The translations under genes were made by a program, and so were the position numbers. Under the pieces are notes generated by a model. That model worked only from the letters and a program-made list of their open reading frames with translations. It did no database searches and had not been told where the DNA came from. 64,000 nt of DNA from Octopus vulgaris (Eukaryota), in contig OX597814.1 in assembly GCA_951406725.2 (NCBI GenBank), forward strand, positions 1,054,001 through 1,118,000, given 5' to 3'. Below are positions 4,355 through 61,908 of the stretch, piece after piece; the first letter of the stretch is position 1, and each line of letters begins with the position of its first letter.

Positions 4355-4940
4355 TTTTTCTACACTAAGTACAAGGCTTGAAATTTTTTAAGAGTGGGGT
4401 ACAGTCGATTAGATTGACCCCAGAATGAAAAGCAAAGTTGACCTCAGTGGAATTTGAACCCAGAATGTAAAAACAGATGAAATACCGCTAAACATTTCAT
4501 CCAGCTTACTAATGACTCTTCCAGCTCACCGCCTTATAATTATTCTTTTCTACTCTAGGCACAAGGCCTGAAATTTTGGGGGAGGTGGGCCAGTCGATTA
4601 GATTGACCCCAGTATACAACTGGTACTTAATTTATTGACCCCGAAAGGATGAAAGGCTAAGTTACCCTTGACGGAATTTGAACTCGGAACGTAAAAACAT
4701 GAAATACTTATTTCTTTACTACCCATAAGGGGCTAAACACAGAGGGGACAAACAAGGACAGACAAACGGATTAAGTCGATAACATCGGCCCCAGTGCGTA
4801 ACTGGTACTTAATTTATCAAGCCCGAAAGGACGAAAGGCGAAGTCAACCTTGGTGGAATTTGAACTCAGAAAATAACAGCAGATGAAATACCGCTAAGCA
4901 TCTCGCCCAGCGTGCTAACGTTTCTGCCACCTCGCCGCCT
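4355..4940 (-). mobile_element. tRNA-derived SINE (GCCTTTCATCCTTTCGGGGTCGAT central domain), tandem/nested copies
   Basis: Reverse complement of the family at 38121-38353, with about three repeated units. Confidence 0.8.
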
Positions 4941-5935
4941 TTATCCTCCTCTGTATTAGCAGAAAGACTGTCATCAGTGCAGCATTCTGCTTGTCACTCA
5001 GTAATATTTACACATTTAATTCCCAATCCATGAATTTTCCTGATACTGGAATCAACATCATTTGGCTGACACTGGATTGAATTTATAATTTGGAGGAAAG
5101 TTTTTACTGATATATCTGTAGAAAGGAGCAGTGCAAATATTTAGGTAACCTTCCAGAAGAAGAATAAGCAGAGATGTTAGAAAATGCAAGAGGGTCTGCA
5201 TGCCCTGCAGATCTTGAAGAGAGGGAATGTTATTGTCAAGGTCCTTTCATTGCTATTCACAACCTCATCAAGCAACCAACCAACCAACTGGTTGTTTAAC
5301 CAAAACATTAAACAGATGATTGATTAGTTAATTGGTTAGATATTTATCTGATTGACTGACAATAAAGAAGTGATATTGAACCAGTGTGTGTGTTTGTTAT
5401 TATTGGTATAATGACCTTCCCAAGATTAAAAAAAAAAAAGTACTGAAAGTCTGATAATAAAAGATGTGTTGGTTAGATAATATAAAACCTGCGGTTTCTA
5501 AATGAGAAGATATGAGAATTCAAGAGGTGTTAATGACATTAATGAATTGAGTCTTATTGGAAGCTGGTCATAATTTTGGTTTATCAAGAAGATAACAACT
5601 CCTGCTGTTGATACCAGCCATGAACACACCTGTACAAGGTGATGAGTAAATCTCTGTTGAACTGAAGGCAGCAGACTTAGTCTGATAAATCCTACCATTT
5701 CAATGTGATTCAGATGGCATTGAAAGTATTAATCTTTATGATTGAAAGCTTAGAAACTGTAATAAACATCTCTCATAAACAAGTTAATAAGTCAGTCAGT
5801 TATGTATTACTGCCTCTGCTCTCGTGTCTAGGACAGAACTAGTACGATCAATTAGTCTGTTGTTTTTAATATTTAATTTTACAAATACAAAGATATTTAT
5901 CTCATATGTATGCACATATATATATATACATACAT

Positions 5936-13178: not shown

Positions 13179-13400
13179 GAGGTGCGTGGCTTAGTGGTTG
13201 GGGTGTCAGCATCATGATCGTAAGATTGTGGTTTCGATTTCTAGACCGGGCGACGCGTTGTGTTCTTGAGCAAAACACTTCATTTCACGTTGCTCCAGTC
13301 CACTCAGCTGACAAAAATGAGTAATGCTGTGATGGACTGGTGTCCCGTCCTCCTGGGGAACTCATATGTCATAAAAACCGGGAAACCAGGCCCATGAGTC
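13176..13400 (+). mobile_element. tRNA-derived SINE (TGTGTTCTTGAGCAAAACACTT central domain)
   Basis: GTGGCTTAGTGG A box and GGTTTCGATTTC B box. Degenerate relatives at ~9470-9560, ~10245-10365 and ~30195-30420. Confidence 0.75.
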
Positions 13401-13672
13401 CTTAGGTTCAATCCTGCGTAGATCCATAAGCGTAAGTCTTTAGGTTCAATCCTGCATATATCCATGTGGGTTAAAGTCCTGATAGAGTAGACATCCCAAG
13501 AAAAAGATGCGAATATATCAACGTTCAATATATGTATTAGAATAAAAGAGAGAATGGAATAAGTCTATCTGGAATAGTCGCAACAAGAAGTATATTAACA
13601 CAGAGAATTGTATTACCATGTAAATGGTAAGAATAGGAATGTACAATAGAGAATATGAAGATGTCTAAAAGT

Positions 13673-13754
13673 TCTTACGATCGTTTCGTGATTATGTAAC
13701 TGAATGGAATCGAAACGGTAATCATATTGAAGTTGCATAACCATTCTTCAGAGA
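13673..13754 (-). ncRNA. Type I hammerhead ribozyme motif (F3, left arm)
   Basis: TCT-CTGAAGA-A-TGGTTATGCAACT...AGTTACATAATCA-C-GAAA-CGATCG-TA-AGA. Confidence 0.8.
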
Positions 13755-14012
13755 TACAAAAAAGAAGAAAACCATTCTTAAAAGTTTATCCATGTTTCTA
13801 AGAATGAGTTAATCCATAGCAGTAGAGATAGGAATCATAAGAATTCTGTATCAATTTCCATATAGTAATCCGACAAGGTTTAGAGAGATTATCATAGTAG
13901 TAATCCAGTATAATTCTTTCATAATTCCTGTGATTCCTATCTATACCGCTATGGATTAACTCATTCTCATAAACACAGGTAAACTTCTAAGAACGGTTTT
14001 CTTTCTTTGATA

Positions 14013-14099
14013 TCTCTGAAGAATGGTTATGCAACTTCAATATGATTACCATTTTGATTTCACTCAGATAAGTTACATAATCATGAAACGATCGTAAGA
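14013..14099 (+). ncRNA. Type I hammerhead ribozyme motif (F3, right arm)
   Basis: TCT-CTGAAGA-ATGGTTATGCAACT...AGTTACATAATCAT-GAAA-CGATCG-TA-AGA. ~14-bp stem II, palindrome ACGATCGT, GUA cleavage triplet. Confidence 0.85.
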
Positions 14100-14124
14100 A
14101 CTTTTATTCATCTTCATATTCTAT

Positions 14125-14601
14125 ATTATTTACATTTGACAGATATTTGTCCTCATCTTGTTTGTTGTTAACATAACGTTTCAGCTGATATAACCACCAG
14201 CCTTCTTCAGGTGTCTTGAGGTAATTTCGAACCGATGGGTTATCATTCCTAAGGTATTTTTCGATGTTGTTATTATTATTATTATTATTATTATTCTATG
14301 TTTGACTTTTGCTTTGCATTTATAGAAGTTGGCTCCAAGTCTCACCCAGAGACCTCAAGAGACAACAAGTTAGAAGTTCATGTTGGTGTTATGCCTAGGG
14401 TGCCATATATTTGGTTTTGTACTTAGTGTTGTTCTAGAGAATGTTTAAGAAACCATAAGAAAATTATGAGTTTATTTAAAAATTTGAGATTACATAGAAA
14501 GTATGTTATGTATTATTATTATTATTATTCAGGTCACTGCCTGGAATCGAACTCTGAACCTTCGGGTTAGGTAGCCCGTGCTCTTAACCACTACACTATA
14601 T
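14125..14601 (-). mobile_element. Family F1 copy nested in F3, with hammerhead at 14171-14214
   Basis: tRNA-like head at 14530-14601; tail with ACAC-CTGAAGA-A-GGCTG..CAGCT-GAAA-CG-TT-ATGT. Confidence 0.8.
14297..14510 (-). mobile_element. Probable 3' end of a second (TAA)n-targeting (Dong-like) LINE
   Basis: Extra ~210 bp inside the (AAT)n linker of F1, flanked by TAA repeats. Minus strand starts with HNILSM* then UTR-like sequence. Family identity is inferred. Confidence 0.45.
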
Positions 14602-14992
14602 CCTCTATTATCCATTCCTTTTCTCACCATTTACGTGGTAATACAATTCTCTGTGTTAATATACTTCTTGTTGTGACAATTCCAAATATACTTATTCCAT
14701 TCTCTCTTATTCCATTCTAATATAGAACTGCTCTTTCACTTTACTCTCTGTCCTTAAGCAATTCTCTTCCAAGATCTTTGGGCAACGATCCAATTTGAGC
14801 ACTTAACTGCTGACACCCAATACAGTTTGTCCTAAAAAAGACTTTATTAATTATTTATATAACACGTTTATCAATTCGTTTTGCTAGATTCCTGATGTGA
14901 AACTGTGTGTTGGAGCAGATATTGTTGTCTGTCAGGACGGTCATTTTATTTATTTATTATTTTTTTGCCAAATATACGCACTTTTTTATTCC

Positions 14993-50424: not shown

Positions 50425-51559
50425 GAGGAACAAACTATACGATGAAATAGGGAAAGTCTTGGAACACGACTTCAGAGAAGATATCAAGAAAAAATGGAAA
50501 CGCTACCTTGATGACTGCTTCATCTTTTGGAACAGATCAGAAGAAGACCTACAAACATTCCACAACATCCTCAACACACTGCACCCATCTATCAACTTCA
50601 CAATAGATACCAGCCACAACGAACTTCCCTTCCTAGACATCAACATCAAAATACACAACTCCATCGTCACAACAAACATCCACTACAAAACAACTGACAC
50701 ACACCAATATTTAAATTTCTACTCTTGCCACACATCCCACATAAAAAGAAACACCCCATATAGTATGGCAAGATGCATATGCAGCATAGTAACCAACTCA
50801 CAAACATTCCAAATATGACTAAATGAACTTAAAAACTTCCTACTAGAACAAAAATACCCCCTTAAACTAATAAAAAATGGAATCTCAAGAGCAATGAAAC
50901 TGGACATCGCACAACTCAGAACTCCAAAAAAGAAAAACAAAGAAAACATCATCCCTTTCATAAACACACACAACCCTGGAGTTACCAACATGTTTCAAAT
51001 CATACATTCAAACTTACCAATAGTCCTACAAAGCCCCAAAATGGGAAACATATTAAACAAATATTGCATAAAAAACAGTAAACGCCAAGACAAAAACCTG
51101 AAAAAACAACTAACAAGAGCGAAATTCTCATCAGAAATTAAAACCGAATTCTTTGTAAAAGAGTGCGGAGGTGGTAGATGTGGGATCTGCAGTAACCCCA
51201 CCTACAAATATATAGAGGGAGACAAACAAATAAAATTTAAGAGTGATCACATATTCAAAGTAAATGTAGACATGAACTGCAAGATGCAGAACGTAATATA
51301 CTGCATAACCTGCCCCACATACAAGAAGGATTACATAGGTGAAACTGGAAATTCTTTATGCCAAAGAGCCAGAACTCACCGACAACATGTTCGACAGGAA
51401 TAACTGCGAAAGATTCCACTGAGTAAACACCTAGATACGTATGGAGAAGGAAAATTTAAGATCTTTCCCTTCTACAAATGTCCAACGAATGACACCTACT
51501 TCAGGGGAAATATGGGAAAATACTTCATAACAAAGTTCTCCCCCAAATTGAATGGCTGA
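50425..51559 (+). pseudogene. Penelope-like element ORF (RT C-terminal half + Cys-rich linker + GIY-YIG endonuclease; Neptune-like), 5'-truncated, two in-frame stops
   Basis: One frame: WKRYLDDCF, INFT, LPFLDI, YKTTDTHQYL.F.SCH, C-GGGR-CGIC, C...NVIYCITC...YIGETG..L..R...HR..V, LSKH, PKLNG*. Stops at 50816-50818 (TGA) and 51401-51403 (TAA). Confidence 0.93.

Positions 51560-61270: not shown

Positions 61271-61908
<638 letters not shown>

What the first reader, a model, noticed from the sequence alone, without database searches (positions are those of the whole stretch)
13535..14722. ~310-bp fold-back with intact hammerheads on both strands and an unusually long stem II (F3)
Seen: both arms keep CTGAAGA, GAAA, the ACGATCGT palindrome and a GUA triplet despite many arm-to-arm substitutions elsewhere. 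Stem II is ~14 bp with a ~30-nt apical region. An F1 copy later inserted ~25 nt past the + strand ribozyme. Inference: a transcript from either direction contains one ribozyme; the large domain II departs from the usual tiny PLE stem II.
Basis: partly seen in the sequence, partly recalled or inferred. Interest (0 to 1): 0.72.

Follow-up and report, generated by a model that had tools for sequence, protein, structure and literature searches.

The report
Long-armed hammerheads in Penelope element ends
This is a worn, back-to-back pair of end pieces from a likely Penelope-type jumping gene, each with a self-cutting-RNA (hammerhead) motif that is predicted to be switched off here; the layout is already known, but the extra-long arm is shared by about 39,000 similar motifs in this genome and is longer than the arms listed for this group in the one published table read here.

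Summary
Two inverted arms each carry a type I hammerhead motif: CUGAAGA, a 57- or 62-nt domain II, GAAA, the palindrome ACGAUCGU, GUA, and only a 3-bp helix I. They are the pseudo-LTRs of a decayed, low-copy Penelope-like family, most likely Hydra clade. One arm ends at a TA end, the other has a ~130-nt tail and a later F1 insertion with a 10-bp target duplication. Hammerheads on opposite strands are published. Both cores being intact is about a 1-in-10 chance; only 4 of 16 family copies keep the full motif. A read-through RNA is predicted to lock the ribozyme in dsRNA. The long domain II is not special to this locus: 40,872 genome matches against 1,643 control, 2.4 times the excess of short forms. 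In 52 consecutive hits the free stem III letters are palindromic in 43 and helix I has 3 or more pairs in 37 (control 7%). Published Hydra hammerheads have domain II of about 25 nt or less. So: dead copy, known layout, new structural variant of a known ribozyme; cleavage untested. The scan noted like loci before (e1-9838340, e1-9560118).

The parts
13531..13923 (-). pLTR arm 1 (family F3), ending at the family's TA-type 3' end
   Evidence: 88% to reference copy L023 positions 37-434; same end in other copies
13673..13754 (-). type I hammerhead motif, 57-nt domain II, 3-bp helix I, predicted cut after the A at 13676
13912..13923 (.). inversion junction: 12 bases claimed by both arms (inverted microhomology)
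   Evidence: overlap of the two alignments to L023
13912..14127 (+). pLTR arm 2, inner part (more 5'-truncated than arm 1)
   Evidence: 86% to L023 positions 104-320
14013..14099 (+). type I hammerhead motif, 62-nt domain II, 3-bp helix I, predicted cut after the A at 14096
14128..14599 (.). later insertion of the very abundant repeat F1, flanked by a 10-bp duplication (14118-14127 and 14600-14609)
   Evidence: reference positions 311-320 occur twice; other F1 copies end here; very high contig depth
14175..14210 (-). minimal hammerhead motif inside F1 (short helix II, ACGT palindrome)
14600..14722 (+). pLTR arm 2, outer part
   Evidence: found in 8 of 18 F3 loci, on one side only in each of 7 two-armed loci

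Best explanation
The locus is an inverted pair of repeat arms that are likely the pseudo-LTRs of an old, dead insertion of a Hydra-clade Penelope-like retrotransposon, and each arm carries a type I hammerhead motif that is predicted to cut only as a dimer and to be silent here. Shown: the arms, the one-sided tail, the later F1 insertion, the link of F3 to a GIY-YIG gene remnant, and covariation of helices I and III across families. Inferred: the two arms arose as two cDNA copies of the element's RNA end, begun at two start points about 130 nt apart and joined at a 12-base microhomology; in the active parent, two tandem hammerheads paired through the 8-nt palindrome to cut the multimeric RNA, perhaps with protein help; domain II is an expandable hairpin whose apex grows by insertion and is kept mainly for staying paired.
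For: F3 copy L030 has an EN C-terminal remnant (51% to the L080 EN) about 420 bp upstream of its pLTR; the same 3' UTR joins EN to the pLTR start in L087 and lies upstream of the pLTR in L020 and L027. Related loci show the Hydra marks CxCx5C, RW+DKT, KDHK and CxLCxxE...CRH (against section 11 of PMC8557442). 14 divergent pairs (28 of the first 100 hits), none convergent, within 5 kb (hand count). Helix I of 3 or more bp in 51 of 66 (control 12%) and 37 of 52 (control 7%). The four free stem III letters are a Watson-Crick palindrome in 28 of 52 (background 7%), 43 of 52 with G-U (background 14%), in 8 different palindromes. The double-hammerhead fold is at or within 2 kcal/mol of the cofold minimum for 4 of 7 other loci tested. 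Sister families share the basal stem with apices of 25 to 60 and 36 to 70 nt. Decay: 4 of 16 copies full, 10 of 16 core only. Fold-back trapping.
Against: No full-length F3 parent was found, so the clade rests on an EN remnant and on relatives; no tree was built. The core is somewhat better kept than flanks in F3 (10/187 against 554/5222, p=0.02), though copies were found with a query holding the core and CpG sites in stem III decay. The window motifs fold no better than shuffles (z -0.17 and +0.61), and their double-hammerhead fold lies 7-8 kcal/mol above the cofold minimum, so even the parent's activity is unproven. Only 1 of 52 sampled hits had an EN within 1.2 kb upstream, so not every long-domain family is tied to Hydra. 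40 of 52 domain II lengths fall at 53-63 nt (hand count), which a purely neutral apex does not predict unless by common descent.
Confidence: 0.8

Rival explanations
1. The long domain II is a selected working module of these elements, for example a binding platform for the PLE protein or a replacement for the missing loop I-loop II contact, which makes these ribozymes a distinct functional subclass.
For: Long forms exceed short ones about 2.4 to 1 above control (39,229 against 16,495); lengths cluster at 53-63 nt in 40 of 52 hits from many families and domain II stays paired (median z -1.9); the Anolis PLE hammerhead needs its protein to cut (PMC11167929).
Against: A length series from 19 to 70 nt exists among sister families, and I saw no shared apical sequence or internal-loop position between unrelated families by eye; clustering may be descent; published Hydra elements manage with short helices.
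Confidence: 0.2
2. This particular fold-back has been kept by the host, as a regulatory self-cleaving site or a dsRNA source.
For: Both window arms keep the full motif while only 2 of the other 14 F3 copies do.
Against: The locus was picked for that trait; chance is about 0.09 from arm divergence; the - arm has lost the 10.1-11.1 pair and 5 apical bases; F1 broke one arm; the ribozyme is predicted trapped; such pairs are common.
Confidence: 0.05
3. The element is a MITE-like DNA element with terminal inverted repeats, and the hammerhead likeness is chance.
For: Long inverted arms at a TA-rich site; Rfam reported no hammerhead in the window at E up to 1.
Against: Arms are unequal, 5'-truncated at different points, with a one-sided tail; many copies are single arms; an EN remnant is attached; the motif is 25-fold above control and its helices covary.
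Confidence: 0.02

Closest known systems
Hydra clade of C-terminal EN+ Penelope-like elements and their hammerheads (Craig et al. 2021, PMC8557442; Hydra-1_Obim, Penelope-13_HM)
   Same: CxCx5C linker, RW and DKT motifs in relatives, (TA)n targets, inverted 5'-truncated copy, one-sided tail, type I hammerhead with palindromic 3-4 bp stem III, GUA/GUU site, short helix I, frequent U.U at the base of helix II; Penelope-13_HM is listed with the motif on both strands.
   Different: The listed Hydra motifs have helix II of 3-7 bp and loops of 3-10 nt (about 25 nt or less in all); here 57-62 nt. The tail is ~130 nt against the 30-40 bp stated.
min-HHR and palindromic-helix-III HHR of metazoan PLEs (Cervera and De la Pena 2014, PMC4209133)
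   Same: Type I, short helix I, palindromic 15.2-16.2 and loop 3, dimer model, pairs on opposite strands 100-700 bp apart.
   Different: Helix II there is 6-8 bp with a conserved G10.1-C11.1; here 13 bp plus a ~30-nt apex and A-U or A.C at 10.1-11.1.
PLE-X1_sMoe and PLE-X1_sTam hammerheads of Selaginella (File S2 of PMC8557442)
   Same: Precedent for a large domain II in a PLE hammerhead (sMoe: 9 bp and a loop of about 35 nt, marked as deviating).
   Different: Plant, EN-minus, rDNA-targeted, two families; not a genome-wide majority form.
Non-LTR retrozymes (as described in bioRxiv 10.64898/2026.07.22.740005)
   Same: Type I hammerheads in pLTR-related non-coding units.
   Different: Retrozymes are head-to-tail arrays; this locus is an inverted pair. 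A long-domain family does form a 534-bp head-to-tail array elsewhere.

Membership tests
Type I hammerhead ribozyme | Core CUGANGA, GAAA, NUH in order | tested here: met
   both arms
Type I hammerhead ribozyme | Helices I, II, III around the core, supported by covariation | tested here: met
   Across families; in the window helix I is only 3 bp and monomer helix III 2 bp
Type I hammerhead ribozyme | G10.1-C11.1 pair | tested here: not met
   A-U (+) and A.C (-); G-C in only 17 of 52 sampled hits; many published Hydra motifs also lack it, so it is usual but not required in this group
Type I hammerhead ribozyme | Loop I-loop II tertiary contact | not tested
   No conserved loop motif noticed by eye; no formal test
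Type I hammerhead ribozyme | Self-cleavage at the NUH site | not testable with these tools
   No raw RNA reads were offered; needs an in vitro assay
EN+ Penelope-like element | pLTR with hammerhead downstream of a GIY-YIG gene | tested here: met
   L030 and L087; the window copy itself has no coding part
EN+ Penelope-like element | Inverted 5'-truncated copy and one-sided tail | tested here: met
   tail is longer than published
EN+ Penelope-like element | PLE-type RT in the same element | tested here: inconclusive
   No RT found on an F3 copy; RT pieces only in loci whose EN is 67-71% like the L030 remnant at DNA level
Hydra clade | CxCx5C linker; CxxC and CxH around the conserved E and N | tested here: met
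   L078, L079, L107, L129 for the linker; CxLC..E and CRH/CRN in L030, L080, L104; linker not preserved in an F3 copy
Hydra clade | RWK and DKT motifs in RT | tested here: inconclusive
   IRWQAFFF and SDKT in L128, a relative found through the L030 EN remnant; not in F3 itself
Hydra clade | Phylogenetic placement with reference Hydra RTs | not tested
   Reference proteins were seen only as text in a supplement; compared by eye
Hydra clade | Insertion into (TA)n | tested here: met
   Ends run into TA repeats in L020, L021, L022, L027, L030; only a short TATA-like end in the window
Non-LTR retrozyme | Head-to-tail units each with a hammerhead | tested here: not met
   Inverted pair here; no tandem F3 hammerheads among the 19 matches

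The most novel reading that the evidence does not exclude
This genome holds about 39,000 hammerhead motifs of an undescribed architecture, from many Penelope-like families, in which a 53-63 nt domain II is a selected module (a protein-binding platform or a substitute for the loop I-II contact) working with a palindromic dimer helix; standard models miss them, and the F3 family also starts reverse transcription at two sites 130 nt apart.
Probability: 0.2. Interest if true: 0.68.

Novelty: new variant of a known kind. Interest (0 to 1): 0.4.

Why it matters
The locus itself is a dead copy in a known layout. The class behind it matters more. It roughly triples the helix II domain size on record for animal PLE hammerheads in the papers read, and its count is well above the largest quoted there (about 9,000 in Xenopus; 235 Rfam hammerheads in giant squid). 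It shows that descriptor and Rfam searches undercount ribozymes in such genomes: none of the four motifs in this window was reported. What PLE hammerheads do is still open, and a natural series of 19-70 nt domains on one core, with young identical copies and a perfect tandem array, gives ready test substrates. It also suggests re-checking the 'half-core' Naiads (35-50 nt spacers) as long-domain hammerheads.

Tried and rejected
Rfam scan of the window: 109 matches at E up to 1, none a hammerhead. Folding the window motifs alone: no better than shuffles. Search for an RT-bearing F3 parent: none among 17 F3 loci plus the window or the 15 matches to the EN-UTR piece. Expression: no RNA holder listed and no raw reads (the query was a young relative, L079, not the window); contigs of one run guessed as RNA did not cover the F3 arms, which is no evidence either way. 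No contig showed the locus without F1. The 140-bp piece left of the element also lies beside L020, which suggested a shared part; it is a separate abundant repeat (413 candidates). The zinc-knuckle 'body' between the arms of L020 looked like the element's own gene; a homologue in L087 has its own 17-bp duplication, so it is an inserted element. Naiad as parent: rejected, since the EN is C-terminal. Lunse et al. 2017 could not be read. Rows dropped: 5 of 28 BLAST pieces under 100 bp were left out and 7 of 23 rows did not span the core; the 66 rows are de-duplicated hits from loci partly chosen by hand; the 52 rows are the first 52 of 40,872 in contig order, so families repeat and rows are not independent.

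Full report
Observation. The region holds two inverted arms. Against a family copy (L023), arm 1 covers positions 37-434 on the - strand (13923 to 13531); arm 2 covers 104-320 (13912-14127) and then 311-563 (14600-14854) on the + strand. The arms match at 185 of 211 inner and 111 of 122 outer aligned bases. Each has CTGAAGA, a domain II of 62 (+) or 57 (-) nt, and GAAACGATCGTA. Stem II is 13 or 12 pairs with one mismatch and a 34- or 29-nt apex. Helix I is 3 bp. The 472-bp F1 insertion begins 31 nt past the + cut site and duplicates 10 bp of F3, so F1 is younger. A contig of an independent run spans the centre (13770-14039). The window lies in a 2.8-Gb genome; I take it for an octopus from recalled repeats and from an earlier AI note, not from a tool label.

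The family. F3 is low in copy number: 19 and 24 matches to two probes, 72-93% identical, lower bounds. Copies are single arms or inverted pairs. They end either at a TA-type end or about 130 nt further on; this tail is in 8 of 18 loci and on one side only in the 7 two-armed ones. One copy, L030, has a GIY-YIG C-terminal remnant upstream, 51% identical to the EN of L080. Its 3' UTR also follows an EN remnant in L087 and precedes the pLTR in L020 and L027. Loci related through this EN, or carrying the same hammerhead type, show CNCRIKSKCP or CTCKNKKSCP, IRWQAFFF...SDKT, KDHK, LYRDD and CxLCxxE...CRH. These match the Hydra clade as defined in section 11 of PMC8557442 and resemble Hydra-1_Obim by eye. 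No RT-bearing F3 copy was found and no tree was built.

Is the locus under selection? Among 16 F3 copies that span the motif, 4 keep it whole (both window arms among them) and 10 keep the core. Core sites differ from the majority at 10 of 187, flanks at 554 of 5222 (p=0.02); stem II (49/476) and stem III (12/112) are like flanks. The copies were found with a probe that holds the core, so this small excess is biased upward, and it can reflect constraint in the parent lineage. Two arms 12.3% apart agree at 18 given sites about 9% of the time. In either direction the antisense arm is transcribed first; predicted pairing of the hammerhead with the far arm is 0.92 (+) and 0.96 (-), and stem II has probability 0.

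The long domain II is a class trait. CTGANGA-N40-70-GAAACGATCGTA has 4,410 matches against 1 control; the N10-39 form has 1,722 against 1. With the four middle letters free, the long form has 40,872 against 1,643 and the short form 17,970 against 1,475; the sets may overlap slightly. In the first 52 hits the free letters are a Watson-Crick palindrome in 28 (background 7%) and in 43 with G-U (background 14%; halves swapped 24%), with 8 different palindromes. Helix I has 3 or more pairs in 37 (control 7%), with different pairs by family; domain II folds better than shuffles (median z -1.9). A second, partly hand-picked set gave 51 of 66 against 12%. Rows are not independent, but the changes between families are compensatory. 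Of the first 100 hits, 28 sit in 14 divergent pairs within 5 kb and none in convergent pairs (hand count). Sister families keep the basal stem and differ in the apex (25 to 60 nt; 36, 39, 44, 68, 70 nt; 19 to 37 nt). Yet 40 of 52 lengths fall at 53-63 nt (hand count). Only 1 of the 52 had an EN within 1.2 kb upstream; EN links were seen in L030, L042, L078, L079, L080, L131, L132, L134 and L169.

How it likely works. In a monomer, helix III would be 2 bp; two copies can pair the 8-nt palindrome (-10 kcal/mol). The double-hammerhead fold equals or is within 2 kcal/mol of the cofold minimum for 4 of 7 other loci, but is 7-8 kcal/mol above it for the window copies. So the parent's tandem pLTRs would cut as a dimer, as proposed for PLE motifs, perhaps with protein help, as shown for the Anolis element. 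That element cuts and extends both DNA strands and starts reverse transcription at two sites that define the tail. I infer that the two arms here are two such cDNAs, begun 130 nt apart and joined at the 12-base overlap. This step is inferred, and earlier AI notes proposed the same for other genomes. After insertion the copy decayed and F1 landed in it.

Comparison with print. Opposite-strand hammerhead pairs 100-700 bp apart are in Cervera 2014; the inverted copy and a 30-40 bp tail are in Craig 2021; Penelope-13_HM has the motif on both strands. The Hydra motifs in File S2 have helix II of 3-7 bp and loops of 3-10 nt; two Selaginella PLE-X1 motifs have large domains. I found no account of a 40-70 nt domain II in animal PLE hammerheads in five searches. 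That library lacks Lunse et al. 2017, and I did not see Cervera's supplementary alignments; either may hold such cases. Papers seen: PMC4209133 parts 1-2 of 4 and passages; PMC8557442 passages, section 11, supplement part 2 of 59 and search hits, no figures; PMC11167929 parts 1-2 of 4; bioRxiv 10.64898/2026.07.22.740005 part 1 of 5; PMC6962438, PMC13725137 and PMC6765202 passages.

Verdict. Real motif, known layout, dead copy. The long domain II is a new variant of a known ribozyme and is the majority form of this motif class in this genome. Cleavage is untested. Interest 0.4.

Noticed in passing
window 61348-61425 (-): A third long-domain-II hammerhead motif of another family (59 nt, AATT palindrome, 6-bp helix I).
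   Followed up: partly
L176:1515-3394: Perfect 534-bp head-to-tail array (3.5 copies, 100% identical), each unit with a 50-nt domain II hammerhead motif, AATT palindrome and GUC site: retrozyme-like and the natural substrate for dimer cleavage.
   Followed up: partly
L087:2112-3571 (continues in L101); also L020 about 4800-5790, L022, L021: A roughly 1.5-kb element with a zinc-knuckle ORF remnant sits at the start of the F3 pLTR in several copies; in L087/L101 it has a 17-bp duplication and is followed by a second insertion at the same site. Possibly target-specific; its 3' end looks by eye like that of a nearby LINE.
   Followed up: partly
window 14723-14854: The F3 tail is about 130 nt, against 30-40 bp in the literature read; it implies two reverse-transcription start points far apart.
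   Followed up: partly
window 13393-13530: A separate abundant repeat with a 38-bp internal unit abuts the F3 end; it also forms a long tandem array at G000:C1:207113530-207117233.
   Followed up: partly
window 50549-51451: Remnant of a Neptune-like PLE ORF (RT thumb to GIY-YIG), 24% to the L082 ORF.
   Followed up: no
L084:2818 (-) and 3555 (+): An inverted pair whose two hammerheads share the 3' half but have unrelated 5' halves; one may be a chance or chimeric core.
   Followed up: no
L078:3829-5720, L079:3270-4950: Young Hydra-type copies with long Asn-rich insertions between the RT thumb and EN and near-identical hammerheads; best substrates for assays.
   Followed up: no
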